A stretch of 62,800 nucleotides of DNA from Rhodothermales bacterium (GTDB taxonomy: Bacteria; Bacteroidota; Rhodothermia; Rhodothermales; UBA10348), in contig JAFMNH010000001.1 of the NCBI GenBank assembly GCA_017859335.1, positions 1-62,800 on the forward strand. The letters run 5' to 3'. The position numbers were made by a program, and so were the translations under genes. Below the pieces are notes generated by a model. That model searched no databases. It was given only the letters and a program-made list of their open reading frames with translations, and was not told the DNA's origin. Shown piece after piece: positions 222 to 55,210 of the stretch (position 1 is its first letter; every line of letters starts with the position of its first letter).

Positions 222-866
222 ATGGCAAGCTTGTACAAAAGAGGAGATAACTACTACCTCGCCTTTCACCAGAGTAACCAGACGCCAAACCGTAAGCATG
301 TATCGTTACGAGCGTCATCTTACAAAGTGGCTCAGCACAAGGCTGCCCGGCTGATTGTTCGCTATGAAAAGGGCGAATACGACCCGTGGCGGCCTACTGA
401 GCAGCCGAAAACACAGACCCTTGCCGCTGCAGCTACTGCCTTTCTTCAGACGCGCAGGAATCTATCCAAGCAGTCTGTCGCCAAGTATCGATCAGTCCTT
501 GGCCAATTGGTCCAACATGCTGGTAGGAAGACGGCTCTTGATCTGCTTACTACAGCGAAGGTGCAGTCCTTCATTGATGCGTCTGATCGTCGCGCCATCA
601 CCAAGCGCACCTACAGTACGACACTCTCCCCGTTCTTCAACTGGGCAGTCGCAGATGGGCTGATAGAGAAAAACCAGGTCAGAGGACCACGCCTTCCGCG
701 CGTGCCTGAGAAGACGCCTAAGACCCACTCCATACTGACCGTCCAGGATCAAACAGTAATCGGTGTATTTCATCGAACCAGAATCAGATCAACACCAAAG
801 GGCTTCTTGATTACGCACCGATGTGATCTCGAGCACCGCAACCTGGTCGCTTTGATGCGGGACTGA
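222..866 (+). pseudogene. Truncated tyrosine recombinase (phage-type integrase); N-terminal arm-binding and SAM-like core-binding region only
   Basis: The N-terminus MASLYKRGDNYYL and the segment AFLQTRRNLSKQSVAKYRSVLGQLV...KVQSFID...TYSTTLSPFFNWAVADGLIEKNQV are typical of integrase N-terminal domains. No catalytic domain (R..HxxR..Y) follows. The ORF stops at 866 and the next gene ends at 900, so about 200 aa are missing. Confidence 0.65.
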
Positions 867-41897: not shown

Positions 41898-42992
41898 TCA
41901 GGACCGTACGGGGAGCTCTACCGCGACGCGGGTCTTTTCGCCTTCTTTGCTCTTTATGGACATGCCCCCGCCGTGCAATAGGGCAATCTTTCGGCAAATG
42001 GCCAGACCCAACCCGAGGCCAGGATGATTGACATCCCGCTCACCGAACTGCGTAAAGGCGTCCACCCTTGCTATTTCCTCGGCGCTCATGCCTTTTCCGT
42101 GGTCGGTCACTGCCAGGCCGAAGCGCTGGGGAGCAAACGCTGCTACCACCTCCACGTGTTGCCCAGGCTGGCTGTACGTGAATGCGTTGTCCAGCAGTTC
42201 GGTCAGGATCCGTCCCAGATAATCCGATCCCATGGTAATCGTCCCATCCTTGATATCCAGCTTGAGATCTGTTTGCCGCCCGCGCACCTTGGCCAGCGCC
42301 ATGGCGTGGTTTCGCAGAAAAGCCTCTACCGATGGTAATTCAGCATCCGAGAGATGAGCGCGGGCGGCGGTATCCTTCTCCAATCGGGAAAGCTGATAGA
42401 ACAGGCTGAAATTGTCTACGGCTCGACGCATACGCCAAGCAGCTGCCCCCAGCTGCTCGCCAACGCGTCTCAGTTCTCTGGCTTCAAGGGGTGCATTGGG
42501 GCTGGTCAGCAGCTGCGCAAACCCGGAAATAGAGCGAAGGGGTTCGGACAGTTCTGCCGGCAGAAGAACGCTGACACCCGTCTCGGTGGTTGTGGTATTA
42601 CGCGTCTGTATGGAGGCCGCCTCGTACCGCTTGCGCAGTTGGGCGCCGACGGCGTTGAGTAACTCGGTAGCGTTGAAGGGTTTGGGCAGATAGTCATCGG
42701 CACCGAGTGTCATGCCTTGGCGGTGGCCGCCCTTGCTCGAATAGCCCGTCATCATGATGACGGGGATGACCGCGGTGGCCGGTTCGCTGCGAAGCGTCTG
42801 AAGAACCTGATAGCCATCCGCACCGTCCATCACGACGTCCGAAATGACAAGGTCCGGTACGTAGGCGCGTGCCTTGTCGATGCCCTCGAGGCCATTGACA
42901 GCCAGGAGCGTTTCATGACCTTCCTCGGAGAGGACCTCCGAGACCATGTCGCGGTACATCGGATCGTCGTCGATGACTAGGATGCGGGGCAT
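41898..42992 (-). CDS. REC-domain protein fused to a histidine-kinase-like DHp/CA module that lacks the H-box histidine
   Basis: REC (ILVIDDDP...DLVISDVVMDGADG...KPFNATELL). The DHp helix LLPAELSEPLRSISGFAQLL aligns to ..SHELRTPL..I.GF..LL with Ala at the His position (codon GCA, 42555-42557). The N box (ELLDNAFTYS), G1 (DHGKGM) and G2 (GLGLGLAI) are intact. Confidence 0.9.
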   Translation of the reverse strand: MPRILVIDDDPMYRDMVSEVLSEEGHETLLAVNGLEGIDKARAYVPDLVISDVVMDGADGYQVLQTLRSEPATAVIPVIMMTGYSSKGGHRQGMTLGADDYLPKPFNATELLNAVGAQLRKRYEAASIQTRNTTTTETGVSVLLPAELSEPLRSISGFAQLLTSPNAPLEARELRRVGEQLGAAAWRMRRAVDNFSLFYQLSRLEKDTAARAHLSDAELPSVEAFLRNHAMALAKVRGRQTDLKLDIKDGTITMGSDYLGRILTELLDNAFTYSQPGQHVEVVAAFAPQRFGLAVTDHGKGMSAEEIARVDAFTQFGERDVNHPGLGLGLAICRKIALLHGGGMSIKSKEGEKTRVAVELPVRS

Positions 42993-43002
42993 ATGGGCGT
43001 GC

Positions 43003-45303
43003 TCAGGCGTGTTCGAATGTCAGGGTGCCATCACGCGCCGTCAATACCCAGCGCGGATGCGTCTTCAGTTCTCCCGAGAGAAGTTTGCGACTGAGAGGGA
43101 TCTGGACGAGACGCTCCAGGGTGCGGCGCATTTCCCTGGCTCCGTATTCCGGATTGTATCCCGCATCGGTCAGCAGGTCTCGGGCCGAACCATCGACAGA
43201 GAGCTCGACCCCATGCTGTTTCTTGACATGGGCCTGCATCTTTGCAAAGAGCCCGTCGAGAATGGCTCGGATGCTGTCGGCCGAGAGATGGACAAAGGGG
43301 ACAATCTCGTCGATCCGGTTGATCAATTCAGGTCTGAACCACGTCTTTAGGGCCTCATTGATGGCGTTTCGGTCCGCAGATTCGTCTACGTCAGGACGCA
43401 CGTTTGTCGTCAGGATGAAAATACAGTTCCGGGCATCGCAGAGCCGACCCTTGGCATCCGTAATGCGTCCCTCATCGAAGACCTGCAGGAAGACGTCGTA
43501 GACACGTTGGTGCGCCTTCTCCACCTCATCCAGGAGTACAACGCTGTACGGTTTGGATCGGATCTGACCAGTCAGTTGGCCCTCCTCCTCACTGCCCACA
43601 TATCCGGGTGGCGAACCGATCAGTTTGGATACGGTGTGTTCGCCCTTGAACTCGGACATGTCGAAGCGGATCAGGTTCTTGTCGGAACCGAAAAGGAACA
43701 GGGCCAATTGCTTGGCCAGTTCCGTTTTGCCCACCCCCGAAGGACCCAGGAAGAGCATGGTTGCCAAGGGCCCACGCCGCTCCATGACCGGCGCGTGGGC
43801 CAGTATCATGCGCTCGGATACTTGATGGATGGCTTCATCTTGTCCCTTCAGAGAGCGGCCCAGGAAGGCTTCCATCTCCAGCATGCGCGCTCCGCCATGA
43901 TCGCTGAGGTGACTGGCCACGATATCGCGGGGCATCCCCATCTTCTGCGCCAGCACATGCGCGATATCCTCCGGTGTGACGACCTTGCCGGAGAGTGGGC
44001 TGCCCATGTCCGCTGACGTTTGGAAGTCCGCTGGGTTCATGGACAGTGCCGAAACGGTAGCCTGAGCACCGGCACGGTCGAGCAGATCAATGGCCTTGTC
44101 CGGAAGGCGATGGTCCACATCCAAGCGCATGGAGAGGTCAACTGCCGTCTCGATGGTTTCGTCCAGGTAGGTGGCCTGATGGTGCTTGGCCAACCCCCGC
44201 GCCACGCCCTTCAGCATTTCGATAGCTTCTTCGCGCGGCGGTTCGTCCACCCGGACCCGCTCAAAGCGACGATCCAGCGCCGGGTCCTTTTCGATGAAGC
44301 GACGATACTCATCGATCGTAGTGGCACCGATCAGTTTGAGGGTACCTCGGGCCATGGCTGGTTTGAGCAAGTTGGCGGCATCTGCCGACCCGCCGCCAGC
44401 ACCCATGATCGTGTGGATCTCATCGATGAAAAGGATCAGGTCATCATCCTCACTGGCCTCCTCGATGATTTTCGTCAGTCGCTCTTCAAACTGTCCACGC
44501 AGGGAGGTGCCGGCCAGAAGGGACCCCATATTCAGCTCGATGATGCGACGACCACCGAGAACCTGGGGGTCCTTGCCTTGCACGGCGCGCAGCGCGAGCG
44601 CCTCCACCACGGCACTTTTACCCACCCCGGGGTCCCCGACCAGAACGGGGTTGTTTTTTTTCTTCCTGGCCAGCGCCTGAACGGTTTCGAGAATTTCCTG
44701 GCGCCGGCCAATGATGTCAGGAATGCGTCCCTGCCTGGCCTCCTCGGTCAGGTCCTTTCCGAACTGCTCCAGGAGTCGCTCCCGACCGGTGCCTTCGGGG
44801 TTCGACTGGGCCGCGGCCCGCGGTGGCGCGGGCCGCGCGGATCCCGAGGCAGGAAGGCCCGCTTTCTCCCGAAAGCTCGTATGGTCACTGCCTACACGTC
44901 GGAGAGCACGAAGAACGTCCTCATCCGCATCCTCCAGCGTGGCCGCCAAAAGGTGGATACTGCTGATGGCATCCTGTCCGGCGATGCTTTCGGCACGCTC
45001 GAACACAAGACGCGTCCGTGGACTGCGGTGAATGACGCCCCCGGAAGCATGGGAAGAGGGAACCGTATGCTGCACCTGAGCGGCCCGATGGACGGCAGAG
45101 GGCAGACACCCGGCGGCAGCAAATGCCGTCTTGAGGGCCGTCGTCTCCTCATCGGCCTGCAATGAACCATCGAGGACAGCTTGAGCGCTGGCGGCCAGGG
45201 CGGCCAATACGTGCGTGGGTTCGATATGCTGTGCCCCACTTCGAGCAGCCTCGGCAGCAGCCCGCTTCCAGACGAGCCGGGTTGTCGTTGTCAATTCAGC
45301 CAT
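43003..45303 (-). CDS. Clp/Hsp100-family double-AAA+ ATPase; ClpA-like length, with no M-domain and no ClpP-docking tripeptide seen
   Basis: Two Clp_N-like repeats. D1 has Walker A GDPGVGKS and Walker B LILFIDEIH. D2 has Walker A GPSGVGKT and Walker B VVLLDEVEKAH. The Walker A motifs are about 296 aa apart, which is ClpA-like. The loop after LTTN (VRPDVDESADRNAINEALKTW) has no IG[FL]. Confidence 0.9.
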   Translation of the reverse strand: MAELTTTTRLVWKRAAAEAARSGAQHIEPTHVLAALAASAQAVLDGSLQADEETTALKTAFAAAGCLPSAVHRAAQVQHTVPSSHASGGVIHRSPRTRLVFERAESIAGQDAISSIHLLAATLEDADEDVLRALRRVGSDHTSFREKAGLPASGSARPAPPRAAAQSNPEGTGRERLLEQFGKDLTEEARQGRIPDIIGRRQEILETVQALARKKKNNPVLVGDPGVGKSAVVEALALRAVQGKDPQVLGGRRIIELNMGSLLAGTSLRGQFEERLTKIIEEASEDDDLILFIDEIHTIMGAGGGSADAANLLKPAMARGTLKLIGATTIDEYRRFIEKDPALDRRFERVRVDEPPREEAIEMLKGVARGLAKHHQATYLDETIETAVDLSMRLDVDHRLPDKAIDLLDRAGAQATVSALSMNPADFQTSADMGSPLSGKVVTPEDIAHVLAQKMGMPRDIVASHLSDHGGARMLEMEAFLGRSLKGQDEAIHQVSERMILAHAPVMERRGPLATMLFLGPSGVGKTELAKQLALFLFGSDKNLIRFDMSEFKGEHTVSKLIGSPPGYVGSEEEGQLTGQIRSKPYSVVLLDEVEKAHQRVYDVFLQVFDEGRITDAKGRLCDARNCIFILTTNVRPDVDESADRNAINEALKTWFRPELINRIDEIVPFVHLSADSIRAILDGLFAKMQAHVKKQHGVELSVDGSARDLLTDAGYNPEYGAREMRRTLERLVQIPLSRKLLSGELKTHPRWVLTARDGTLTFEHA

Positions 45304-45323
45304 GAGCGCAGGAAGGTGAGGAT

Positions 45324-47672
45324 TCAGCCGGCCAGGTCGGCGGGAAGATATCGTGGGAAAAGATAGAAGGTGGGACGTAAATGGGGGAGACGGTAGCGGG
45401 GATGCCAGCCATTTGCCTGAATGCGCAGTGTGGAAACCGGCTGTGAGGGTAACACATCATCGGAGAGTATCTGCTGTAGTTCCTCGGAAATGCTGCGGAA
45501 CCCACCTGGGAAAACGGCCGGCAGGCCCTTGGCATGCAGGTGGGACAGCATCTCGGCATTGAAAAGCGCAGCTCCTCCTATAGCCCCCTTCCCATGGGTC
45601 ATGCGTGCCGCCGTCGAAAACGTGATCGATGCCTCTTCCGAGCGGTTCAACAGCGAGTAGGCTACGCCCAGATTGTAATGAAGCAGCGCCGAATCGGGGT
45701 GCTGTTTCAGCCCCTGCTTGATCGTGTCGAGCGCGCGCTCATCCTGCCCCATGCGTAGCGCAGCACCGCTCACTGCTGCATAGGCATAGTCCATGTGCCC
45801 ATGCGCCGGAAGGTCTTTCCCGGAAAGGGCCAGAGCAGATGCTTCCTGCCCGCACAGCAGATACAGGATTTGCCCCTGAACGCTCAGCACCGTATCCCTG
45901 TCCTCCGGCTTGATACGTTTCCACGCTTCCAGCGCTTCATCAAGACGCTTCAAATCCACGAGGATCTGTGCTCGCATGCGCAGTGCCTCTTCCTCTACCT
46001 CAGGACCGCTCATCTCGTCGAGTCGGGCCAGAGCAAGGCCCGCTTGCCCCGAACGAGCCAACGCCTCGATCCAGGCCAGGTGATGGCGCGGCTGCAAATC
46101 GCCTGCGCGGTCCAGTTGTCGGAACAGTGAGAGCGCTCGTTTATAGCGACCAAGACGGACCAGGCAGATGACCTGACCCCGGGCAGCAGGTGTATGAAGG
46201 GGGTTGATGGAAAGGGCCCGTTCGAACAGCTTAAGCGCATCGCTGACCTCTCCCATGCTGGCCAGCAAGGCCGCCTTGGCTGTCAGACTCTCCACATCTC
46301 CCGGCGCCAGTGCCAGTGCCTCCTCCAAGCTTTCCATGGCCTCTTCGTACGTGCCCATGGAGCGGAGCAGTACGCCCCGATGTACCCAGGATTGAGGCAG
46401 TGACGGATCCAATTCGACAGCACGATCGAACAAGTCCAGTGCCATGCGATGGTAGCCTCTCATGTACATACATCGTGCTTTACCCACATGGGCTTCGGCA
46501 TGATCGGGCTGGGATTCAAGCAGGGATTCGTAGACGGGTTGCGCACTCGCTGGTTGGCCCAGGGCCAGCAGGGCGTCTGCTTTACCCAACAAGCTGAGTT
46601 CATCCGAGGGATCGCCCTCGAGTGCGCGACTGAAGGCGTGGATGGCTTGGGGATACCTGCCGATACGGGCCAGGCTCCTACCTCGCGAGAGCCATCCTTT
46701 TGGGGATAGCGGGCGAACGACAGGCGGTGGTACCAAGGAAAAGCCCTGTTCACGCTGCACCTGTTCGAGATCCGCCCGAAGCGCTGCAAAATTTGGATAC
46801 CGTCCGTCGGGTTCCGTAGCCATACAGCGCCGCAGCACGTGATCGAGCGGCGTTCCCAGCTTGGGCACTTCAAAGCGTCGGTGAGCCTTTTCCATCTCAT
46901 TCCAGAACCGAAGTCGGCTCTCCAACGTCGTTTCAGTTGGCCACGCAAGGGTAACCGGCAACTGCCCGGTCATGGCTTGATACAGGATGACACCAACCGC
47001 ATAGATGTCCGAGCGGGCGTCGCAGGTAGCCGCATTTTCAAACTGCTCGGGTGGCATGTGGGTGGGCGTTCCAAAGCCGATTCCGTGCATGGTTTGCCCC
47101 CGGAAGAGTTTTTTATTCTCTTCAAGACGCGTGTCAGGCGTTTCTCCCAAACTTGCCACGGGCTGTGTGGCCAGGCCGAAATCATTGATTTTGACATCGC
47201 CTGCCTCGTTGATCATGACGTTGGCAGGCTTGAGATCCCGGTGGGCACGAATCCCCCTCAATCCGGCATACTCCATACCGTGGCTCAGTTGAACACCCCA
47301 GCGCAGCCACTGATCAAGCCCCGGAGAGGCATTCTTCAGAATCTTATCCAGATCGTTGTACCCCAGGGGTCCGGCCGAAATAAGCTCCATCCCCACGTAG
47401 AGACGCCCGTCGATTTCATCGGCAAAGTAGGCCTGTACCAGGTATGGATGGGCTCCGAGTGCAATCCAGATCTCAGACTCCTGGCGAAAGCGTGTGATGG
47501 CACGACGATCCAGGGACGACTTCAGGTAGGTCTTCAGGGCGAACTCGCGACCATGTTCGAGCGATCGGGCATGATAGACCACCCCGAAGCCACCCTTCCC
47601 GAGGATGCTCATCACCTCGTATCGATTGCCGATCCGATCGCCTGGTCGGACAGTATCCTGGTCGTTGGCCAT
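45324..47672 (-). CDS. Hanks-type Ser/Thr protein kinase with C-terminal TPR-repeat region
   Basis: GKGGFGVVY, ALK, HRDLKPANVMI, DFGLAT and GTPTHMPPEQ, followed by a long series of TPR-like repeats (..ALALGQPASAQPVYESLL.., ..GRYKRALSLF..). The ATG at 47672 is preferred (alternative 47696). Confidence 0.9.
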   Translation of the reverse strand: MANDQDTVRPGDRIGNRYEVMSILGKGGFGVVYHARSLEHGREFALKTYLKSSLDRRAITRFRQESEIWIALGAHPYLVQAYFADEIDGRLYVGMELISAGPLGYNDLDKILKNASPGLDQWLRWGVQLSHGMEYAGLRGIRAHRDLKPANVMINEAGDVKINDFGLATQPVASLGETPDTRLEENKKLFRGQTMHGIGFGTPTHMPPEQFENAATCDARSDIYAVGVILYQAMTGQLPVTLAWPTETTLESRLRFWNEMEKAHRRFEVPKLGTPLDHVLRRCMATEPDGRYPNFAALRADLEQVQREQGFSLVPPPVVRPLSPKGWLSRGRSLARIGRYPQAIHAFSRALEGDPSDELSLLGKADALLALGQPASAQPVYESLLESQPDHAEAHVGKARCMYMRGYHRMALDLFDRAVELDPSLPQSWVHRGVLLRSMGTYEEAMESLEEALALAPGDVESLTAKAALLASMGEVSDALKLFERALSINPLHTPAARGQVICLVRLGRYKRALSLFRQLDRAGDLQPRHHLAWIEALARSGQAGLALARLDEMSGPEVEEEALRMRAQILVDLKRLDEALEAWKRIKPEDRDTVLSVQGQILYLLCGQEASALALSGKDLPAHGHMDYAYAAVSGAALRMGQDERALDTIKQGLKQHPDSALLHYNLGVAYSLLNRSEEASITFSTAARMTHGKGAIGGAALFNAEMLSHLHAKGLPAVFPGGFRSISEELQQILSDDVLPSQPVSTLRIQANGWHPRYRLPHLRPTFYLFPRYLPADLAG

Positions 47673-47685
47673 GGCTCGATCTCGA

Positions 47686-49308
47686 CTACCAATCACCCCC
47701 CATCAGCTCGTCGAAATCCGAGTCTGAAAGGGTGTCACCGGTATGGAACAGTGTGGCATCAGGGGCCTGCGTGGAGTCAGGCGAGACCGTGCTACTGCCG
47801 GGTACCTCGGTCTGGTCACCCATCTTGAGACCAATGGCGTTCATGAGCTGATTGGTGGTGTAGGGCTTGTGCAACATGGTGATCCCTTCCCTGTCCATTT
47901 CAGCCAGCACGGTACCGTCGCGGTTGTGGTCCTCTTCAGAAAGTCCGGAGACAGCAACGACGGGCAGATCGGCACGCACCTCGCGCATGTTTCGAACCAT
48001 CGTGGGGCCATCCATGACAGGCATGTTGATATCCGTGATCACCAAGTCGATCGCCTGGGGATTCTTCAGGAAAATATCGAGGCCTGCCTGTCCGTGCGAC
48101 GCTGTTAGGGTCGTATGGCCGAACGATTCCAGGAGGTCGGCATTCATTTCAAGCATCATGGGTTCATCGTCGACTACGAGAATGCTGTAGGTGTTCTTTC
48201 CTGGGACGGCTTCCGCGAGCGGCACTGTATCCTCGGCTGTCGCATCAGGAGTGGTGGCCTGAGGCAGGTATATGGAGAAGCAACTTCCTTTCCCGGGCTC
48301 GGAGGTGGCCGAGAGAAATCCGTCGTGGCCTTTTGCGATGGCCAAGGTTGTGGATAGTCCAAGCCCTGAGCTCTGCCCACGCTGATGGGTCGAGAAAAAC
48401 GGTTCGAAGATGCGCTCCATCGTATCAGGCATCATTCCGCAGCCGTCGTCCGTCACGGAAATACGCACAAAGTCCCCATCGCGTGCATCTGGCGACAGTG
48501 CCGCTGCTTCCTCTGCCGTCAGGCTTATTCCTTCCATGTCGACGGTTATGGACCCGGCTCCTTGCAAGGCATCGCGGGCATTGACCATCAGATTCAGGAC
48601 AGCCTGTCGTATCTGGGAGGCATCTCCGAGGAGAAGGGGAAGATCACGCGGAAACGACCCTTCGACGGCCATCTGTCGCGAGAAGGTCGACTGCGCGAAT
48701 TCAACCAGCTCCTTCATGACATGGCGGATCTGAACCGGGATTTTTTCGCCTGTAGTGCCCCGGGAAAAATCGAGTACCTGTTTGACGATATCAGCGCCCC
48801 TTCGTGCGCTCTGCTCGATCCCTTCGATCTTTTTGAGGGCCCACGGATCGTCAATGCGACGGCGCATCATTTCGGCGCCCAGAATGATCGGTCCCAGGAC
48901 ATTGTTGATGTCATGCGCCACACCACCTGCCAGCGTCCCGATGGACTCCATACGTTGGGCACGAATCATCTGCTCATGGGCCATGTTGCCCTCGAGGACA
49001 TCGTACTCCAGGATGAAAAAGGCTGTTAGACTGCCGTCGGCACCTTTCAATGCACTCCAGCGGCTGGCCAAGCTACTGGTACTGTCGTGGGCATCCTTGC
49101 GTGCAAGGATGCCCACCCACTGTCCGGCCTGGCGGGTCGTTTTGGCCGCTTCGGAGAGATCCTCTGTCTCCCCGGGAGCCAACGGGAAATCCGAAGGAGA
49201 CCAGCCAAACACAGCACATGCATGGTCGGTTGCCCACGTTACACGCAGGTCCGCATCCCGAACATGGATACATTCCGGCAATCCTTTCAATAGGGAGAGT
49301 TCATCCAT
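47686..49308 (-). CDS. Hybrid sensor histidine kinase (PAS - HisKA - HATPase_c - REC)
   Basis: N-terminal PAS-like domain. H-box LAGGVAHDINNVL, N box LMVNARDA, G boxes DDGCGM and GLGLST. C-terminal REC (ILVVDDEP...LVITDINMPVMDG). Confidence 0.9.
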   Translation of the reverse strand: MDELSLLKGLPECIHVRDADLRVTWATDHACAVFGWSPSDFPLAPGETEDLSEAAKTTRQAGQWVGILARKDAHDSTSSLASRWSALKGADGSLTAFFILEYDVLEGNMAHEQMIRAQRMESIGTLAGGVAHDINNVLGPIILGAEMMRRRIDDPWALKKIEGIEQSARRGADIVKQVLDFSRGTTGEKIPVQIRHVMKELVEFAQSTFSRQMAVEGSFPRDLPLLLGDASQIRQAVLNLMVNARDALQGAGSITVDMEGISLTAEEAAALSPDARDGDFVRISVTDDGCGMMPDTMERIFEPFFSTHQRGQSSGLGLSTTLAIAKGHDGFLSATSEPGKGSCFSIYLPQATTPDATAEDTVPLAEAVPGKNTYSILVVDDEPMMLEMNADLLESFGHTTLTASHGQAGLDIFLKNPQAIDLVITDINMPVMDGPTMVRNMREVRADLPVVAVSGLSEEDHNRDGTVLAEMDREGITMLHKPYTTNQLMNAIGLKMGDQTEVPGSSTVSPDSTQAPDATLFHTGDTLSDSDFDELMGGDW

Positions 49309-49482
49309 GGGCGGGGCGGGTGGTTTCTGCAGGATGTCGTAAACGACGAGACCGTCATGGGTTCCAACAGCCGCTCAAAACGGCGGTATTCATGGCTTTT
49401 GAGGTGGAATCTCCCGTTATTGTCACTCCCTCCTTTTGTTCATAGATGGATGCCCTGAAAGGGCTCTGATACACGGACTGTA

Positions 49483-52400
49483 ATGGCTTCTATCCGCTTC
49501 AAATTGTTGCGCACAACGCTGATCCCGACCATTACCTCGGCGGTGTTGGCCATTGTCGTTATAGGTCTGCTCAATCGTAGTTCCCGTCACAATCAGGGAG
49601 ACCGCGGGCTTGTGGATGCAACCCATCAGATGTCCGAGGAAATTGATGCGTCCATGCGGGAGGTGATGGCCTCGGTCCGGACGGTGTCGGACATCATCTC
49701 AAGCATGGCTTCCAATCAGATCATGACCCTGGGTACGGAGTCTTTGCTGGAGGACCTCATCCTTCAAAACGAGATGGTCTTGGCAGGGAGCATCGATTTT
49801 CATGGTTCGTCTGCCAAGAGCGGAAACCATCACTACATCGACCACGTCATCCAGGAAGCGGCCCAAAAGGACTCTTCCCTTACGATCTATGAGAGCCGAC
49901 GTGAGGATTTTCCAGTCGGATTGCGGGATATCTACGATCAGTTGAATGAAGGGGCCCTTGCAGCGTGGTCGGAGCCCTATTACGATGACAGGGTGGTCAG
50001 ATCGAATGTGATTACATACGGCATGATGCTGGCCGGTGATGACGATCAAGCCATCGGGGTGCTCACTGTCAGCCTGGCTCCCGAAACAATGCGCCCCCTT
50101 ATTGAACGTGCCACCCGGAATGCTCAGCGACGGATACCGGTTTCGCAAGGGCCTGCCTTCGAGGCCACCCTCCTCTCCTCTGATGGGAAGATCATCTATA
50201 GCCCGATCCCGGACCTGATTGGTCAGGACATGGCCAGCTCTTCTCTCGCATACATCCCTTCTGATATTCGCGAGAAGCTGCCTGATATGCTTTCCGAGGC
50301 CGCGGCACCAGCGTTGCAGCATGAGTGGCGGGAGGATGAATCGAGCCACATTGTTGCTGCATTATCGCCCATGAGGGGGACTAAATGGTGGCTGGTTGTC
50401 GAGGCAGATCACGCGACGCTCTACAGTGTCGATGCCACCCTTCTTGCGGCCATGATCGGCGCGGTCCTCTTTTTCTTCGGGTTCATGGGACTGCTTCTCG
50501 GGCACAGCACCGAAACCGTCATAGATCCACTTCTGAGGCTTACGGCCGCCGTGCAGCGCGTGGGCAAGGGCGATCAGAACGTATCCTTGCCCAGGTCCGG
50601 GCCAAATGAGATCGGTATCCTGATCAAGGCCTTCGGATTGATGATTGAGCAGCTGGGCGAGCGTGAAGACCAATTGAATCAGCTTCGCGTCTCAGCCACA
50701 GCCGATATTGTGGAGCTACTGCCCGGAAAGAATTTTTTCTATCAGTCTTTTCCTGGAGACCAGCCCCGATACGTCAGTGGGCGGATTCATGACGTACTGG
50801 GCATTTCTCCTGACGAGTTCCTGGCGACCATTGATGATGCCGTTACGGATACCGGCCAGACAGTAGCAGAAAGAACATTGACGCTCATGGCGTCTGATCA
50901 GGACCGGGAAAGCCTGTCTTTGCGCTATGCCACGGCGCAGGGTGATGTGCACAACCTGGAAATTTCGCTGCTGGTGGTTCGCTCGTTGAATGGTGACGTG
51001 CAGTGTGTTGACGGTCTCGTGGTTGACATGACCAAGGTCGTGTCCGAGTCCGACAGGCTCTTGGCCTATCTCGATGGCTCGCCCGATGCCTTCCTCGTCG
51101 TATCGGCAACGGGTTTCATCCTGCAAGCCAATCAGGAAGCGGAAACGCTCTACGGGTACACCCGAGCAGAGCTCGAGAGCATGCCGTTCGAAAACCTCAT
51201 TCCAGAGGTTCACGTGCCTGCCTACGTGCAGGCCCGCAGTCGCCTTGTGGATGATGAAAAAGTTCACCACCTGAGTGCCTTCACTGGTATGCAAGCCACC
51301 ACAAAGGATGATCACCTGATCCCAGTGGATCTGATGATGAAGGCTGTGCAGACCGCAGATGGGCTGGTTGTGATCATCATCGCGCGTGACATGACCGAAT
51401 CGCTCAGTGCGCAACGCGGTCTGGAACAGGCCGAGACCTTCCTCAGACAGGTCATGGAGAGTTCCACGGCCGTTATTGCGGCCAAGGATCTCGAAGGGCA
51501 GTACACCTTGGTCAACCAGCGCTTCATGGATGTCCTCTCTTCGGGCATGGATCGCGAAGAGATCGTCGGATCCAAGGACAGCGATCTGTTTCCTCCGCGC
51601 ATCGCTCAAAAACTGAGGGAGGCTGATCTGCAGGTCATCGAAACCGGCAAGCTGGTTGAAGTGGAGGAAAAGGTGGTCGTCGACGGACAGCCCAGGGACT
51701 TCATCTCGATCAAGTTTCCCATTCGTGATGTGAATGACGTGATCACGGGTGTCTGTGGGATGTCCACCGATATCACGGAGATCAAGGAAACCGAACGTGC
51801 CCTGCTTGAGAGCAGAAATCAAATGCGCCGCGAAATGGATCTTCGGGAGCTCGTTCTCGAGGCGGCTTCCATCGGATTCTGGTCGTTCAACCTGGAGGAC
51901 CGCTCGTTGTATCGCGACACCAACTTACGCACCATTCTGGGTGTTGAATTGGACGACACGGCGCCCTGCAAGGATTGGCATGAGTTGGTCCATCCAGAGG
52001 ATATCGAACGGGTCGAAACCGACTTTCTGGGGGATCTTTTTGAGGACGGACTGCCGGATGTACCCAGATACCGCTCGTGTGAATATCGCATCATCCGTGA
52101 GGACACCGGGGATATACGATATGTCCGTGACACGTTGCGGACCACCGTTGGGGACGAGGGTCGCCTGGAGAGTGTTTTTGGCGTGGTGCGCGATATTACC
52201 GATCTGCGTGCGGAGCAGAACAAGTTGCGTCAGATCTTTGATGCGCCCATGGAGGGCTTTGGTTTCCTTTCGTCGACAGGTGAAATTCTGGAGGCCAGCA
52301 TCGGGTTGGCAGCCACGCTGGGCTATGAAGACCCGGATCAAATAGTGGGCACCTTCTTCACGCAGCATTCAGCAGAAGAGCAGGAAGGCGGAATCGACGC

Positions 52401-54057
52401 AGTCACCATGGGTCAGACCGTATACGCCCGAGCCATCGAGGGGGAAGATCAGCAATTCACATGGCTCATCAAGCGCAGTAATGACCAGGTAGTCAAACAT
52501 CTTGCTTCGCTGAACCGTGTGGAGTTCGACCGGGTGCCTGCCCTCTTGGTAACGCTGCGTGATGTTTCTGAATTGCAGGAGCTGATTGACCAGGCTGAAA
52601 TGGCCAGCCGAGCCAAGACGGTGTTCCTGGCCAATATGAGTCATGAAATCCGGACCCCGATGAATGCCATCCTCGGGTTTGCCGACTTGCTCTCCGAGCA
52701 GATAACTCATCCCGTCCACAGCCAGTACCTTGACACGATCCACAGCTCAGGTCGTGCGCTCCTTACGCTCATCAACGACATTCTGGATCTGTCCAAGGTG
52801 GAGGCGGGCAAGCTCAATCTTACCCCAACACCGACGAAACTTGTGACCATGGCCCGGGAAATCGAGCAGATCTTCCAGCACAAGGCTGGCCAGAAGGGAC
52901 TCGATCTGGTTCTGGAGATCGAGGAAGATTTCCCTGAAGCCGTGATGATCGACGAGGTTCGGATGCGGCAGATCCTTGTCAACCTCGTCGGAAATGCCAT
53001 CAAGTTCACTGAGGTCGGAACCATATCCCTGATTCTTGAGGCCAGTGTGTCGGACGCCGATCAGCTGACTGCGGACGTTACCTTCCGCGTCCGGGATACA
53101 GGGATCGGCATCCCAGAGGACGACCAGCAGCGTATCTTCTCGGTCTTCGAGCAGTCCGGGAAGTCGCATGAATCCATGGAAAGTGGTACCGGACTAGGTC
53201 TGGCCATCACGCGTCGACTTGTCCTCCTGATGAAGGGAACGATTCAGCTGCAGTCCAAAGTCGGCAAAGGCTCGGAGTTCATCGTTCGTATTCCAGGTCT
53301 CGAACGCATCGATGCCTCCATTGCCGGCAGCATAACAGCTCGGGAAACGGTCCCTGATGTGGCATTCGAACCGTCCAAGATCCTGGTCGTGGATGATATC
53401 CGGTCAAACAGGGACCTCATCAAGGGATATCTATCGGAGTATGGGTTTACCTTGTTACAGGCATCCAATGGCAAGCAGGCGCTCGATGTCATGCAGCAAA
53501 CCCGGCCTGATCTAGTCTTGCTCGACGTCAAGATGCCGGTCATGGATGGCATCGAAACGGCCCGCCGCATCACTCAGAACCCGGCCTGGTCTGATGTCGT
53601 TCTCGTTGCCCTCACGGCATCGACCTATGCCAAGAGCGAGGAAGAGATGCGGACCATGGTTGAGGCGTATCTGCGAAAGCCGGTCCCGAAACCGGAGTTG
53701 GTACGTACCCTGATGGAATTTCTTCCCCATAAGGACGTCGATCGTTCTGAAGATGAGCAGGCCGACTCCTCCACCGATCTTACTGGTGCCAAGGCAGCGC
53801 TCAGCGATGCCAAGCGTGCAGCCCTGCGGGAGCGTCTGGAGCAGGAACGCAGTCGGGTGGCCGAGATGATCGCATCGCAAACCATCAATGATGTGGAAGC
53901 CTTTGGTCAGGAAATGGCTGATCTCGGGGCCGAGCATGGATATGAACCCCTGCACCTATGGGGTGAGCGCCTGACCTCGCATGCCACCTTGTTCCAGATC
54001 GATCAAATGAACACCTCCTTGAACCGGTTTGAAACCCTTCTGAACGAACTGGACTGA
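49483..54057 (+). CDS. Giant (1524 aa) hybrid sensor histidine kinase: Cache-like periplasmic domain, TM/HAMP, multiple PAS, HisKA, HATPase_c, REC, helical tail
   Basis: N-terminal TM plus a Cache-like segment (AIGVLTVSLAPE). A second TM is followed by a HAMP-like stretch, then several PAS units. H-box FLANMSHEIRTPMNAILGF, N box LVGNAIKFT, G boxes DTGIGI and GTGLGLAI. REC (ILVVDDIRSN...LVLLDVKMPVMDG). Confidence 0.9.
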   Translation: MASIRFKLLRTTLIPTITSAVLAIVVIGLLNRSSRHNQGDRGLVDATHQMSEEIDASMREVMASVRTVSDIISSMASNQIMTLGTESLLEDLILQNEMVLAGSIDFHGSSAKSGNHHYIDHVIQEAAQKDSSLTIYESRREDFPVGLRDIYDQLNEGALAAWSEPYYDDRVVRSNVITYGMMLAGDDDQAIGVLTVSLAPETMRPLIERATRNAQRRIPVSQGPAFEATLLSSDGKIIYSPIPDLIGQDMASSSLAYIPSDIREKLPDMLSEAAAPALQHEWREDESSHIVAALSPMRGTKWWLVVEADHATLYSVDATLLAAMIGAVLFFFGFMGLLLGHSTETVIDPLLRLTAAVQRVGKGDQNVSLPRSGPNEIGILIKAFGLMIEQLGEREDQLNQLRVSATADIVELLPGKNFFYQSFPGDQPRYVSGRIHDVLGISPDEFLATIDDAVTDTGQTVAERTLTLMASDQDRESLSLRYATAQGDVHNLEISLLVVRSLNGDVQCVDGLVVDMTKVVSESDRLLAYLDGSPDAFLVVSATGFILQANQEAETLYGYTRAELESMPFENLIPEVHVPAYVQARSRLVDDEKVHHLSAFTGMQATTKDDHLIPVDLMMKAVQTADGLVVIIIARDMTESLSAQRGLEQAETFLRQVMESSTAVIAAKDLEGQYTLVNQRFMDVLSSGMDREEIVGSKDSDLFPPRIAQKLREADLQVIETGKLVEVEEKVVVDGQPRDFISIKFPIRDVNDVITGVCGMSTDITEIKETERALLESRNQMRREMDLRELVLEAASIGFWSFNLEDRSLYRDTNLRTILGVELDDTAPCKDWHELVHPEDIERVETDFLGDLFEDGLPDVPRYRSCEYRIIREDTGDIRYVRDTLRTTVGDEGRLESVFGVVRDITDLRAEQNKLRQIFDAPMEGFGFLSSTGEILEASIGLAATLGYEDPDQIVGTFFTQHSAEEQEGGIDAVTMGQTVYARAIEGEDQQFTWLIKRSNDQVVKHLASLNRVEFDRVPALLVTLRDVSELQELIDQAEMASRAKTVFLANMSHEIRTPMNAILGFADLLSEQITHPVHSQYLDTIHSSGRALLTLINDILDLSKVEAGKLNLTPTPTKLVTMAREIEQIFQHKAGQKGLDLVLEIEEDFPEAVMIDEVRMRQILVNLVGNAIKFTEVGTISLILEASVSDADQLTADVTFRVRDTGIGIPEDDQQRIFSVFEQSGKSHESMESGTGLGLAITRRLVLLMKGTIQLQSKVGKGSEFIVRIPGLERIDASIAGSITARETVPDVAFEPSKILVVDDIRSNRDLIKGYLSEYGFTLLQASNGKQALDVMQQTRPDLVLLDVKMPVMDGIETARRITQNPAWSDVVLVALTASTYAKSEEEMRTMVEAYLRKPVPKPELVRTLMEFLPHKDVDRSEDEQADSSTDLTGAKAALSDAKRAALRERLEQERSRVAEMIASQTINDVEAFGQEMADLGAEHGYEPLHLWGERLTSHATLFQIDQMNTSLNRFETLLNELD

Positions 54058-54058
54058 T

Positions 54059-55210
54059 ATGGATCCATCGCAAAAACGCATTCTCATCGTAGATGACACC
54101 CAGGAGAATATTCAGGTTCTCGGGGCAGTCCTAAAGCAGCAGGGATTCCTCATCAATGTGGCCATGGGGGGTCGACAAGCCCTTGAGAAGGTGAATCAGG
54201 TGCGTCCTGATCTCATTCTGCTGGATATCACCATGCCCGACCTGAATGGATTTGAGGTTTGTCAGGCACTCAAGGAAGATGGGGATTTGCGTGATGTACC
54301 CGTCATCTTCCTGTCCGCCTTGGCCGATCCGGCGGATATCTCCCATGCGTTCGATGTGGGTGGTGTGGATTACGTTGTGAAGCCTTTCAATGCCACCGAG
54401 TTGCTCCACCGCGTCCGGACACATCTTCGGATGCGCGAACTCCAGGAAAACCTTCAGAAGCGGGTCGAGGAGCTCGGAGATGCGGTGGACACTATCTCGC
54501 GCATGGCCCGTGAGAATGAGACCCTGCTTCGGCACGAGCTGTCCAACGCCATTGGTCCCATACAGGGCTATGTTGACATGATGGCCCGTGAGGTGGATGC
54601 GGATCGGGACGTGCGTCGCAACCAGATTCACCGCATAAGCCAAGGGGTGACGACGCTACAGGAGTTGCTTCATGCCATTCGGGACCTTCAGGCCATTGAG
54701 TATGGACGGACATCCCTGAACCAAACGCCTGTCGATCTTGTCGCCATGGTCAGGGAAGAGATTGCGGCACAGGAGGCCACCGCGGGCCGGAAGATATCCA
54801 TTGCATTTCGATCGCAATCCGAACAGGTCATTGTCGAGGCCGACACGATGTTCTTGCCCGGTGTCTTCAGGAATCTCATCAAGAATGCCGTGGAGCATGT
54901 TCAGGCGCTGGACCCCTCCGAGCAGAAGCTGTCGGTGGCCCTCGGCGAAGTGGACGATGGCGTGGGTATTGTCGTAGCCAACGGTGGCCCACCAATACCC
55001 GAGGAGCTACTACCCCACTTCTTCGAGAAATTCAATTCGACGAAAAAGGGGTCCGGTGGAACGGGTCTGGGTACATCCTATGCCTACACGGTAGTCACGG
55101 CCCACGGGGGGCGCATGTCGGTCAGCAGTTCAGCCGAAGAAGGTACGAGGGTTCGCGTTTGGCTTCCCAAAACGGCGCCCGTGGCCGATCACTCGTCGGA
55201 TCCCGCATAG
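54059..55210 (+). CDS. REC-domain histidine kinase (REC - DHp - HATPase_c)
   Basis: REC (ILIVDDTQEN...LILLDITMPDLNG...VKPFNATELL). H-box LLRHELSNAIGPIQGY has His present. N box LIKNAVEH and G2 GTGLGTSYA. This is a paralogue of the 41898-42992 protein. Confidence 0.9.
   Translation: MDPSQKRILIVDDTQENIQVLGAVLKQQGFLINVAMGGRQALEKVNQVRPDLILLDITMPDLNGFEVCQALKEDGDLRDVPVIFLSALADPADISHAFDVGGVDYVVKPFNATELLHRVRTHLRMRELQENLQKRVEELGDAVDTISRMARENETLLRHELSNAIGPIQGYVDMMAREVDADRDVRRNQIHRISQGVTTLQELLHAIRDLQAIEYGRTSLNQTPVDLVAMVREEIAAQEATAGRKISIAFRSQSEQVIVEADTMFLPGVFRNLIKNAVEHVQALDPSEQKLSVALGEVDDGVGIVVANGGPPIPEELLPHFFEKFNSTKKGSGGTGLGTSYAYTVVTAHGGRMSVSSSAEEGTRVRVWLPKTAPVADHSSDPA

What the first reader, a model, noticed from the sequence alone, without database searches (positions are those of the whole stretch)
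41898..49308. Four-gene operon coupling two-component kinases, a TPR Ser/Thr kinase and a ClpP-independent Hsp100 unfoldase
Four genes on the minus strand are separated by only 13, 20 and 10 nt. In order they are a PAS-HK-REC hybrid kinase, a Hanks-type Ser/Thr kinase with a long TPR region, a Clp/Hsp100 double-AAA+ ATPase, and a REC-HK-like protein.

A protein unfoldase embedded between kinases is not a standard two-component or chaperone-operon layout. Hsp100 genes usually stand alone, or sit next to clpS/clpP or heat-shock regulators. By analogy with McsB-ClpC, where a kinase marks or activates substrates for a Clp ATPase, the Ser/Thr kinase may tag or recruit substrates for the unfoldase through its TPR scaffold. 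The His-Asp components would then gate that activity. This is inference only. No DNA-binding output is encoded in the operon.
Basis: partly seen in the sequence, partly recalled or inferred. Interest (0 to 1): 0.8.

Follow-up and report, generated by a model that had tools for sequence, protein, structure and literature searches.

The report
Kinase-partnered Clp unfoldase signalling cassette
A Rhodothermales bacterium carries a conserved four-gene cassette that places a protease-uncoupled Clp protein unfoldase next to its ancestral partner, a TPR-bearing Ser/Thr kinase, between two two-component signalling proteins, so protein unfolding rather than gene transcription looks like the output of the pathway.

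Summary
Four minus-strand genes, separated by 13, 20 and 10 nt, encode a HisKA-HATPase-REC hybrid kinase, a catalytically intact Hanks kinase with a long TPR array, an N-D1-D2 Clp ATPase, and a REC-DHp-CA protein.

The same gene order recurs in at least seven Rhodothermales/Bacteroidota lineages, with Clp identity falling to 60% and with different flanking genes.

The kinase-TPR/Clp pairing is much older than the cassette.

The whole family lacks the M domain and is structurally closest to ClpC. Most members keep an [ILM]GF loop that aligns with the ClpA IGL and ClpC VGF ClpP-docking loops. The cassette clade has deleted this loop and changed the D1 pore-loop Tyr to Leu.

The last gene is a Rec-controlled pseudo-histidine kinase: the phospho-acceptor His is lost in 31 of 31 close homologues and kept in 88 of 89 more distant ones.

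The ATPase is not a housekeeping ClpA, ClpB or ClpV, and the cluster matches no catalogued defence system. The mechanism (kinase as selector or regulator of the unfoldase) remains inference. I rate it a new variant of a known kind.

The parts
47686..49308 (-). Soluble hybrid histidine kinase: a divergent N-terminal sensor region, HisKA with an intact AHDINN His, HATPase_c, and REC with an intact Asp.
   Evidence: Pfam. Alignment of orthologues. No TM segment. The best NCBIfam hits are CckA-type but far below cut-off.
47689..47739 (-). Conserved C-terminal tail of the hybrid kinase, [ST]D[ST]xFD[DE]L[MF]G(G)D(D/S)W at or next to the C-terminus. It is a candidate docking peptide.
   Evidence: Present in L001, L003, L005, L009, L010, L088 and L176. 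The function is inferred only.
45324..47672 (-). Hanks-type Ser/Thr kinase (residues about 10-310) fused to a TPR array of roughly ten repeats and a clade-specific C-terminal extension.
   Evidence: Pfam. The GxGxxG, ALK Lys, HRDLKPAN, DFG and PPE motifs are conserved in all orthologues. Relatives at 37-40% identity over 520-550 residues are found in Clp-linked loci of other phyla.
43003..45303 (-). N-D1-D2 Clp/Hsp100 ATPase. It is ClpC-like, has no M domain, and has no ClpP-docking loop. Walker A and B motifs, arginine fingers and the D2 GYVG pore loop are intact.
   Evidence: Pfam and NCBIfam. PDB sequence search. Alignments. AF2 model pLDDT 83.5. The top Foldseek hits are ClpC structures.
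43330..43410 (-). Site of the deleted ClpP-docking loop (residues 632-658, TTNVRPDVDESADRNAINEALKTWFRP).
   Evidence: The segment is 26-27 aa and has no [LIVMF]G[FLM] in the cassette clade. It is 34-38 aa with the tripeptide in most relatives; 87 of 120 sequences carry the tripeptide. A relative's IGF aligns with the ClpA IGL loop (BAP chimera) and the ClpC VGF loop.
44491..44511 (-). D1 pore loop GTSLRGQ. The canonical Tyr is replaced by Leu.
   Evidence: The residue triplet is KYR, SYR or KFR in 91 of 120 family members. In the cassette clade it is SLR or TLR (PLR in one member).
41898..42992 (-). Rec-controlled pseudo-histidine kinase: REC with an intact Asp, a long alphaS/DHp helix, and a CA domain with intact N, G1, F and G2 boxes. 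The phospho-acceptor His is lost.
   Evidence: Pfam. Alignments. AF2 model pLDDT 85. The top Foldseek hit is LvrB and then DivL.
42513..42566 (-). Degenerate H box LLPAELSEPLRSISGFAQ. Ala146 occupies the position of the phospho-acceptor His.
   Evidence: At this position 31 of 31 closest homologues have A, N, S, K, V, Q or D. Of the next relatives, 88 of 89 have HELRTPL.
49309..49482 (.). The 174-nt divergent intergenic region between the cassette and the neighbouring two-component operon.
   Evidence: Sequence. No consensus promoter was found. Its role is inferred from the gene layout.
49483..54057 (+). Membrane-bound dCache-HAMP-PAS(x3-4)-HisKA-HATPase-REC hybrid kinase, divergent from the cassette. 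It is a probable upstream sensor.
   Evidence: Pfam. Two TM segments flank the Cache domain. It is conserved next to the cassette in L001, L003 and L010.
54059..55210 (+). Rec-controlled histidine kinase (REC-HisKA-HATPase) with an intact His (RHELSN). It is a paralogue of the pseudo-kinase at 26% identity.
   Evidence: Pfam. H box. Pairwise comparison. It is conserved in L001, L003 and L088.

Best explanation
The cassette is a cytoplasmic signalling module whose output is an AAA+ protein unfoldase rather than a transcription factor.

Its ancient core is a gene pair: a Hanks Ser/Thr kinase with a TPR array, and an M-domain-less, ClpC-like N-D1-D2 Clp ATPase. I infer that the kinase-TPR protein is the dedicated partner of the ATPase. 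It would play the role that MecA or McsB play for ClpC. The TPR array would dock clients and/or the Clp N domain, and phosphorylation would select clients or license their engagement.

In most of the family the ATPase keeps a ClpP-docking loop, so the outcome there would be degradation. In the Rhodothermales clade the loop is deleted and the D1 pore-loop Tyr is lost, while both ATPase rings and the D2 GYVG loop stay intact. The outcome here should therefore be ATP-driven unfolding, disassembly or remodelling without proteolysis.

This lineage has also wired the pair under His-Asp control. A soluble hybrid kinase, probably fed by the neighbouring Cache-HAMP-PAS hybrid kinase, would phosphorylate the receiver of a Rec-controlled pseudo-kinase. 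That protein can no longer autophosphorylate on His. By analogy with LvrB, receiver phosphorylation should switch its DHp/CA conformation, and that would gate the kinase-unfoldase pair.

Shown: the anatomy, the residue states and the conservation. Inferred: the physical partnerships, the direction of phospho-flow, the client, and the non-proteolytic outcome.
For: Conserved order with differing flanks:
- The four-gene order holds across at least seven lineages, with Clp identity 60-99% and STK TPR-region identity falling to about 27-31%.

The core pair is cross-phylum:
- L095 and L150 show the same arrangement.
- Among about 150 loci of other Clp ATPases, only five have any STK in the flanks.

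Independent His-Asp coupling:
- L170 has a PAS-HK next to a REC-Pkinase-TPR fusion.

State of the ATPase:
- The ClpP loop is deleted, and the homologous IGF in relatives aligns with the ClpA IGL and ClpC VGF loops.
- The catalytic residues of both rings are conserved.
- The protein is ClpC-like in structure and lacks the coiled-coil M domain.

Other components:
- Kinase catalytic motifs are intact in all orthologues.
- The pseudo-kinase has lost its His in 31 of 31 close homologues, while the receiver Asp and ATP-binding boxes are retained.
- Its model has the REC-alphaS-DHp-CA architecture and matches LvrB, the prototype Rec-controlled kinase.
- No DNA-binding domain is present in the six genes.
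- All four cassette proteins are predicted to be soluble.
Against: - There is no experimental or transcript evidence.
- No interaction was tested.
- A mirror-tree correlation between STK and Clp divergence is weak (rho 0.33 overall, and 0.20, not significant, outside the clade). The STK in L172 looks replaced.
- A stand-alone Bacteroidota paralogue (P0015, L007) shares the loop loss and the pore-loop change without any kinase neighbour. Those changes are therefore not tied to the cassette.
- L176 lacks the pseudo-kinase, so that component is dispensable in at least one lineage.
- No Hpt protein is encoded in the cluster, so the His-Asp route between the components is unclear.
- Absence of the tripeptide does not prove absence of ClpP binding.
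- I could not check which other Clp ATPases or ClpP genes the genome holds.
Confidence: 0.5

Rival explanations
1. The kinase regulates the unfoldase itself. It would phosphorylate the Clp N domain or the disordered N-D1 linker to switch assembly or activity. The TPR array would bind the Clp rather than clients, and clients would be chosen by the Clp N domain.
For: - The family N domain is a distinctive, fast-evolving Clp_N subtype. A whole-library search finds only 76 weak matches.
- It carries a near-invariant H-R-S motif.
- The linker at residues 155-174 is predicted to be disordered and contains several Ser and Thr residues (translation).
- ClpC-type ATPases depend on partner proteins for activation (established knowledge). 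This family lacks the M domain that such partners use.
Against: - The H-R-S position corresponds to the ordinary helix-capping 'HYTPR' of ClpC, so it may be structural.
- No conserved phospho-site was identified.
- This reading explains gene linkage no better than the main model does.
Confidence: 0.22
2. The unfoldase services the signalling proteins. It would disassemble or reset oligomers of the TPR kinase or the histidine-kinase complexes. This would be a threshold or reset chaperone, as proposed for AAA+ components of other bacterial signalling and conflict systems.
For: - AAA+ chaperones acting as thresholding switches are described for other systems (PMC7159879).
- Loss of ClpP docking fits a remodelling role.
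- The conserved C-terminal tail on the hybrid kinase could be a recognition tag.
Against: - Most of the family retains a ClpP-type loop, which suggests an ancestrally degradative role.
- There is no direct evidence for oligomeric kinase assemblies.
Confidence: 0.15
3. The kinase-Clp pair is an anti-phage or conflict system. Infection would activate the kinase, and the Clp would unfold or degrade phage or host targets.
For: - In distant relatives the pair sits among toxin-antitoxin genes, AAA_15/21 ATPases, PLD nucleases and an integrase.
- The kinase domain matches PD-T4-6 and mad6 profiles, and Clp D2 matches DolB and PDC-M37B profiles.
Against: - The PADLOC matches are generic domain similarity and no catalogued system fits.
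- In the window the neighbours are ordinary chromosomal genes: T9SS cargo, a TonB receptor, glycerol metabolism, a glycosyltransferase and a symporter.
- The cassette is wired to environmental-sensor kinases.
- No homologue above 42% identity occurs on any of 72,556 plasmids.
Confidence: 0.1
4. The ATPase is the organism's ordinary ClpA, ClpB or ClpC chaperone, and the kinases are chance neighbours.
For: Overall sequence similarity to ClpB, ClpC and ClpA is about 40%.
Against: - It scores below every NCBIfam equivalog cut-off: ClpB 651 vs 1232, ClpA 596 vs 993, TssH 593 vs 885.
- It has no M domain and no ClpP loop.
- The clade is rare. Only 14 clusters reach 56% identity or more in 5.8 billion proteins, and only three of the loci returned by the pattern-based scan of 185,579 species genomes are close.
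- The gene order is conserved with changing flanks.
Confidence: 0.03

Closest known systems
ClpC with its partners MecA and McsB (Firmicutes, Actinobacteria)
   Same: - ClpC is the closest solved structure (Foldseek top hits) and shares about 40% sequence identity.
- It has the same Clp_N-D1-D2 layout.
- In the wider family the ClpP loop aligns with the ClpC VGF loop.
- The concept is shared: a dedicated partner, for McsB a protein kinase, selects clients and activates the ATPase (established knowledge).
   Different: - There is no M domain, which is the MecA docking and resting-state element.
- The partner is a Hanks Ser/Thr kinase with TPR repeats, not a guanidino-type arginine kinase.
- The cassette clade has lost the ClpP loop and the D1 pore-loop Tyr.
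- There is no clpP, mecA, mcsA or ctsR in the window.
ClpA
   Same: An N-D1-D2 architecture without an M domain, and a single-stretch alignment over residues 109-747.
   Different: - It scores 596 bits against the 993-bit equivalog cut-off.
- There is no IGL loop and no clpS neighbour.
- Structural hits rank below ClpC.
ClpB/Hsp104 disaggregases and ClpV/TssH
   Same: They are ClpP-independent double-ring Hsp100 ATPases. ClpB gives the best sequence score in the PDB.
   Different: - The coiled-coil M domain is absent; the D1-D2 linker is about 36 aa.
- It scores below the ClpB and TssH cut-offs.
- No T6SS genes are present in the 62.8-kb window.
LvrA/LvrB of Leptospira (hybrid HK plus Rec-controlled HK)
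   Same: - The gene 4 model matches LvrB best (E 2e-21).
- It has the same REC-alphaS-DHp-CA architecture. In LvrB, receiver phosphorylation frees the CA domains (PMC13269768).
- The divergent operon (hybrid HK plus REC-HK with an intact His) mirrors LvrA/LvrB.
   Different: - The cassette copy has lost the phospho-acceptor His, so it cannot signal by autophosphorylation.
- NCBIfam LvrA and LvrB scores are far below cut-off.
- No LvrC-like anti-sigma partner was found.
DivL-CckA-ChpT-CpdR-ClpXP circuit of Alphaproteobacteria
   Same: - It involves a pseudo-histidine kinase lacking the His (DivL; second-best fold match, TM 0.77 on the target).
- It acts with a CckA-like hybrid kinase. The best NCBIfam hit of gene 1 is CckA-type.
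- It ultimately controls a Clp ATPase (PMC9430884 for DivL and CckA; the CpdR-ClpXP link is established knowledge).
   Different: - The genes are not orthologous, since all scores are below cut-off.
- The pseudo-kinase here carries its own receiver domain.
- The Clp is a double-ring ClpC-like ATPase encoded inside the operon.
- A Ser/Thr kinase is interposed.
Esp system of Myxococcus xanthus (EspA and EspC hybrid kinases with PktA5 and PktB8 Ser/Thr kinases)
   Same: It combines hybrid histidine kinases with Ser/Thr kinases, and its output is protein turnover (of MrpC) rather than transcription (PMC4320627). Gene 1 gives weak hits to the EspC and EspA models.
   Different: - Scores are far below cut-off (175 vs 1200).
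- The Esp locus encodes no Clp ATPase.
- The kinases there are not TPR fusions, as far as the cited text says.

Membership tests
ClpB / Hsp104 disaggregase | A coiled-coil M domain inserted in the D1 small subdomain. | tested here: not met
   Query residues 422-434 span the position of ClpB residues 398-513. The D1-D2 linker is about 36 aa. The model shows only short helices there.
ClpB / Hsp104 disaggregase | A score above the NCBIfam equivalog cut-off (TIGR03346). | tested here: not met
   651 bits against a cut-off of 1232.
ClpA/ClpC/ClpX-type ClpP partners | An [ILV]-G-[FL] ClpP-docking loop after sensor 1 of the last AAA module. | tested here: not met
   The loop segment is 27 aa and has no such tripeptide. 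A relative's IGF aligns with the ClpA IGL and ClpC VGF loops.
ClpA | A score above the NCBIfam equivalog cut-off (TIGR02639), and a clpS neighbour. | tested here: not met
   596 bits against a cut-off of 993. No ClpS or ClpP domain appears among the window ORFs scanned.
ClpC | A short M domain with the MecA-binding motif, plus a ClpP loop. | tested here: not met
   Both are absent, even though ClpC is the nearest fold.
ClpV / TssH (type VI secretion) | An equivalog score and co-location with T6SS core genes. | tested here: not met
   593 bits against a cut-off of 885. No T6SS domains appear in the window.
Functional double-ring AAA+ unfoldase | Walker A and B motifs, arginine fingers and sensor 2 in both rings, and an aromatic pore loop. 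| tested here: met
   GDPGVGKS / DEIHT, GPSGVGKT / LLDEVEKAH, RRFE, NRID, GAREMRR and the D2 GYVG motif are conserved in all orthologues. The D1 pore-loop Tyr is replaced by Leu.
Hanks-type Ser/Thr protein kinase (active) | A Gly-rich loop, the catalytic Lys, HRDxKxxN, DFG and an APE-like motif. | tested here: met
   GKGGFGVV, ALKT, HRDLKPANV, DFGLA and PPEQ are conserved in all orthologues. Pfam Pkinase gives E 1e-31.
McsB-ClpC (arginine-kinase-directed proteolysis) | A guanidino-phosphotransferase (McsB) kinase and a phospho-arginine-binding ClpC N domain. | tested here: not met
   The kinase here is a Hanks-type Pkinase. Phospho-residue binding by the N domain cannot be tested with these tools.
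Canonical histidine kinase (gene 4) | A phospho-acceptor His in the DHp H box. | tested here: not met
   Ala146 in LLPAELSEPL. 31 of 31 close homologues lack the His, and 88 of 89 further relatives have HELRTPL.
Rec-controlled histidine-kinase architecture (LvrB type) | An N-terminal REC joined by a long helix to DHp and CA domains. | tested here: met
   AF2 model pLDDT 85 with helix 108-163 running from the REC domain into the DHp. The top Foldseek hit is LvrB 8vc9.
Hybrid histidine kinase (gene 1) | An H-box His, a CA domain, and a receiver Asp. | tested here: met
   AHDINN, HATPase_c and DLVITDINMP are conserved.
Catalogued anti-phage defence systems (PADLOC 2.0) | Full-length matches of the components to one system's models. 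| tested here: not met
   There are only domain-level hits: kinase to PD-T4-6 and mad6, and Clp D2 to DolB and PDC-M37B. The two two-component proteins give nothing relevant: gene 1 has no hit and gene 4 only a marginal SduA hit (E 4.6e-4).

The most novel reading that the evidence does not exclude
The Pkinase-TPR/Clp gene pair defines an ancient, cross-phylum targeting system based on Ser/Thr phosphorylation for a ClpC-like unfoldase. It would be a phospho-Ser/Thr counterpart of the McsB phospho-arginine degron pathway. The TPR kinase would mark or deliver clients, and the divergent Clp N domain would read the mark. In Rhodothermales the system has been converted from degradation to pure unfolding or remodelling, and placed under a His-Asp pathway through a Rec-controlled pseudo-histidine kinase.
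Probability: 0.2. Interest if true: 0.85.

Novelty: new variant of a known kind. Interest (0 to 1): 0.62.

Why it matters
Partner-directed AAA+ unfoldases are central to bacterial regulated proteolysis. Examples are ClpC with MecA or McsB, ClpX with RssB or CpdR, and ClpA with ClpS.

A link between Hanks-type Ser/Thr kinases and a dedicated Clp ATPase has not, as far as my literature searches show, been described. The evidence here shows a conserved kinase-TPR/Clp gene pair; the two sampled loci with taxon labels come from Nitrospirota and Chloroflexota, and the Rhodothermales lineage adds a third phylum. In Rhodothermales the ATPase has shed its protease-docking loop and the pair is embedded between two-component proteins, one of them a receiver-controlled pseudo-kinase.

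If the inferred coupling is real, it would give a tractable model for three questions:
- Whether Ser/Thr phosphorylation can direct proteins to an unfoldase in bacteria.
- What a two-component pathway does when its output is protein remodelling rather than transcription.
- How a pseudo-histidine kinase with an intact ATP site signals.

It also defines an uncharacterised M-domain-less, ClpC-like family that annotation pipelines currently label only as 'ATP-dependent Clp protease ATP-binding subunit'.

Tried and rejected
- **T6SS ClpV:** rejected. The score is below cut-off and there are no T6SS genes.
- **Housekeeping ClpA or ClpB:** rejected.
- **Known defence system:** PADLOC gives only generic domain hits. 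The window context is ordinary chromosome.
- **Plasmid-borne relatives with curated annotation:** tblastn against 72,556 plasmids found nothing above 42% identity, so this gave no usable context.
- **Mirror-tree test of STK/Clp co-evolution:** weak and inconclusive. Rho was 0.33 overall and 0.20, not significant, outside the clade. A first version of the script timed out.
- **A conserved third component between STK and Clp in distant loci:** the intervening ORFs (L170, L172, L174) have no homologues in other loci. The 684-aa ORF in L171 is simply the TPR part of a split kinase gene.
- **Whole-library search with the Clp N domain to size the family:** only 76 weak hits and none at E<=1e-10. The N domain evolves too fast for this to be informative.
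- **Promoter and terminator scan:** nothing above the shuffled expectation, and uninformative for this phylum.
- **Literature searches:** queries on Clp or Hsp100 with Ser/Thr kinase, TPR, and gene neighbourhood or anti-phage terms found no description of this pairing.
- **Downstream genes:** the metallophosphoesterase and glycosyltransferase are conserved only in the closest lineage, L001, and were not counted as parts.

Full report
**1. Observation**

The region holds four minus-strand ORFs: 47686-49308 (540 aa), 45324-47672 (782 aa from the ATG), 43003-45303 (766 aa) and 41898-42992 (364 aa). They are separated by 13, 20 and 10 nt.

Pfam assigns the following:
- Gene 1: HisKA + HATPase_c + Response_reg.
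- Gene 2: Pkinase plus a long TPR array.
- Gene 3: a borderline Clp_N hit, then AAA, AAA_lid_9, AAA_2 and ClpB_D2-small.
- Gene 4: Response_reg + HATPase_c.

No PAS domain is detectable in the window copy of the first protein; only orthologues show PAS domains. The fourth protein is a pseudo-kinase (see section 5).

None of the four proteins has a predicted membrane segment. None has a DNA-binding domain. A promoter and terminator scan found nothing above the shuffled expectation inside the cluster. This is compatible with one transcript but is weak evidence in this phylum.

**2. Surroundings**

Divergently transcribed across a 174-nt spacer lie two further genes:
- A membrane-bound dCache-HAMP-PAS-HisKA-HATPase-REC hybrid kinase (49483-54057).
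- A REC-HisKA-HATPase protein (54059-55210) whose H box is intact (RHELSN).

The rest of the window is ordinary Bacteroidota-type chromosome. It encodes a TonB-dependent receptor, PorV, T9SS-tailed proteins, glycerol kinase, G3P oxidase, a GH81 glucanase, threonine dehydratase and an S8 protease. No clpP, clpS or T6SS gene and no defence-island features are present.

Near-identical sequences are labelled 'Rhodothermales bacterium'. The nearest genome hits are Rhodothermales and Bacteroidota MAGs.

**3. Is the cluster conserved?**

The Clp protein has a tight clade of about 14 clusters at 56-99% identity. Identity then drops sharply to 50% or less.

I fetched contigs for clade members at 79, 77, 70, 70, 62, 60 and 60% identity. 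The same order, hybrid HK, then STK-TPR, then Clp, then REC-HATPase, appears in every case. The exceptions are L010, which is cut by the contig end, and L176, which lacks the last gene.

Flanking genes differ between lineages. The TPR part of the kinase has diverged to about 27-31% identity. The order is therefore maintained by selection and not by recent common descent. The divergent hybrid-HK/REC-HK pair accompanies the cassette in several lineages. A 54% identical relative, P0015, stands alone.

**4. The kinase-Clp pair is far older than the cassette**

Two are labelled Thermodesulfovibrionales and Anaerolineales. All six have a Pkinase-TPR gene upstream on the same strand:
- It is immediately adjacent in L171, L173 and L175.
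- It is separated by two to four small, non-conserved inserts, some of them toxin-antitoxin genes, in L170, L172 and L174.

Two further metagenome loci at 41-45% identity (L095, L150) show the same arrangement. As a control, among about 150 loci of other Clp ATPases fetched by the collection scans, only five have any Ser/Thr kinase in the flanks.

These kinases share 37-40% identity with the window kinase over 520-550 residues, including TPR repeats.

In L170 a receiver domain is fused to the kinase and a PAS histidine kinase sits upstream. This is an independent coupling of the pair to His-Asp signalling.

A mirror-tree test of co-divergence was weak.

**5. What kind of Clp is it?**

The protein scores below every NCBIfam equivalog cut-off: ClpB 651 vs 1232, ClpA 596 vs 993, TssH 593 vs 885, and ClpK and ClpG about 500 vs 1900.

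- *M domain.* All 120 closest homologues lack the M domain; the D1-D2 linker is 20-49 aa.
- *Structure.* An AlphaFold model (pLDDT 83.5) shows a helical N domain, a disordered linker at residues 155-174, two AAA modules joined by a short linker, and a small C-terminal beta unit. Its best structural matches are ClpC structures, ahead of ClpB and ClpA.
- *ClpP loop.* In 87 of 120 family members, the segment after sensor 1 of D2 contains an [LIVMF]G[FLM] tripeptide. In P0032 this IGF aligns residue for residue with the ClpA IGL loop grafted into the BAP chimera and with the ClpC VGF loop. The cassette clade has a segment 8-10 residues shorter, with no such tripeptide.
- *Pore loops.* The cassette clade replaces the D1 pore-loop Tyr (KYR becomes SLR or TLR). 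It keeps the Walker motifs, arginine fingers, sensor 2 and the D2 GYVG loop.

The wider family therefore looks like ClpP partners. The Rhodothermales clade looks like a ClpP-uncoupled unfoldase. The stand-alone paralogue P0015 shares both changes, so they are not strictly tied to the cassette.

**6. The two-component parts**

The hybrid kinase keeps its His and its receiver Asp. It ends in a conserved tail, [ST]D[ST]xFD[DE]L[MF]GGDW, at or next to the C-terminus, in all seven orthologues. This is a plausible docking peptide, but it is untested.

The fourth protein has Ala where the phospho-acceptor His should be:
- 31 of 31 closest homologues carry A, N, S, K, V, Q or D at that position.
- 88 of 89 more distant relatives have the canonical HELRTPL.
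- The receiver Asp and the N, G1, F and G2 boxes are retained.

Its model (pLDDT 85) has a continuous helix running from the receiver into a DHp hairpin, followed by a CA domain. The best structural match is Leptospira LvrB, followed by the pseudo-kinase DivL.

LvrB is the prototype Rec-controlled histidine kinase. Phosphorylation of its receiver domain frees the catalytic domains (PMC13269768). The cassette protein is therefore a Rec-controlled pseudo-kinase. The neighbouring operon encodes the intact version of the same architecture, at 26% identity.

**7. Mechanism**

*Shown.* The evidence establishes:
- A conserved cassette.
- An active-looking kinase.
- An ATPase that is competent in both rings but lacks the protease-docking loop.
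- A His-less, receiver-controlled DHp-CA protein.
- No transcriptional output domain.

*Inferred (confidence about 0.5 for the overall picture).* The TPR kinase is the dedicated partner of this ClpC-like ATPase, in the way MecA or McsB partner ClpC. The lineage-specific His-Asp components gate that pair, with the receiver of the pseudo-kinase acting as the switch. The output in this clade is unfolding or remodelling rather than degradation.

*Not decided by the evidence.* Three readings remain open:
- The kinase marks clients.
- The kinase phosphorylates the ATPase.
- The kinase is itself the client.

I list these as the main model and its rivals. A defence-system reading is possible for the wider family, which often sits among toxin-antitoxin and nuclease genes. 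It is poorly supported for this window.

**8. Comparison with known systems and novelty**

The closest families are:
- ClpC with MecA or McsB: nearest in fold and in the partner concept. It differs in M domain, ClpP loop and kinase type.
- ClpA: the same domain count, but below cut-off and without the IGL loop.
- ClpB and ClpV: ClpP-independent, but they carry an M domain.
- LvrA/LvrB: the same architecture as the two-component parts.
- DivL-CckA-CpdR-ClpXP and the Myxococcus Esp system: functional analogies in which mixed kinase circuits control protein turnover (PMC9430884; PMC4320627).

Full-text searches found no description of a Hanks-kinase-TPR/Clp module. The conflict-system survey I read mentions AAA+ thresholding chaperones but not this pair.

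All the parts are of known kinds, but the combination and the derived states are not catalogued. I therefore rate it a new variant of a known kind, with interest 0.62.

**9. Limits**

- All the evidence is comparative and comes mostly from metagenome assemblies.
- I could not inventory the rest of the genome for other Clp ATPases or ClpP.
- I could not predict complexes.
- I could not extend the synteny sample beyond the capped look-ups.

Noticed in passing
window 47689-47739 (-): The hybrid kinase ends in a conserved acidic/aromatic tail (...SDSDFDELMGGDW, at or next to the C-terminus). It is present in all seven orthologues examined. It may be a docking peptide for the TPR array or the Clp N domain.
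   Followed up: partly
window 49483-55210 (+): The divergent operon encodes a dCache-HAMP-PAS hybrid kinase followed by a Rec-controlled histidine kinase with an intact His. This is an LvrA/LvrB-like pair. It travels with the cassette in several lineages.
   Followed up: partly
window 61118-62332 (-): A 404-aa protein with a PP2C/SpoIIE phosphatase domain lies about 12 kb from the Ser/Thr kinase. Its N-terminal 200 residues match no Pfam family. I did not check whether it is conserved with the cassette.
   Followed up: no
L007 10001-12610: P0015 is a stand-alone Bacteroidota paralogue of 869 aa with 64% identity in the AAA core. It also lacks the ClpP loop and has a Tyr-to-Leu D1 pore loop, but has no kinase or HK neighbours. 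It carries longer N- and C-terminal extensions.
   Followed up: partly
L172 7001-9937: A family member (P0118, 978 aa) has a nucleotide-cyclase (Guanylate_cyc) domain inserted between the Clp N domain and D1. A Pkinase-TPR gene lies upstream and an AAA_15/21 ATPase downstream.
   Followed up: no
L175 2385-16370: In an Anaerolineales-labelled locus the Clp is surrounded by two Pkinase-TPR genes, an HSP70-Pkinase-TPR fusion, an FHA-Pkinase and a Pkinase-WD40 giant. This is a dense island of chaperones and kinases.
   Followed up: no
window 45022-45030 (-), Clp residues 92-94: The N domain carries an H-R-S motif conserved in 93-99% of 120 family members. The wider family also has a conserved Arg cluster about 20 residues upstream. 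This could be a phosphate-binding patch, or simply the equivalent of the ClpC 'HYTPR' helix cap.
   Followed up: partly
L088/L089 5050-11404: On a 3.8-Mb long-read contig the cassette genes are split: HK from REC, and the Clp into 238 + 467 aa. These are probably homopolymer indel errors and not pseudogenes. The contig would allow a full-genome inventory of Clp paralogues.
   Followed up: no
window 222-866 (+): A 214-aa ORF matches only the N-terminal SAM-like domain of phage integrases and has no catalytic domain. It lies near the window start, next to a DeoR regulator.
   Followed up: no
window 42000-48000: G+C content across the cassette (0.59-0.61) is higher than in the first half of the window (0.50-0.55). 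It is similar to the 56-62 kb region. I did not analyse this further for horizontal transfer.
   Followed up: no
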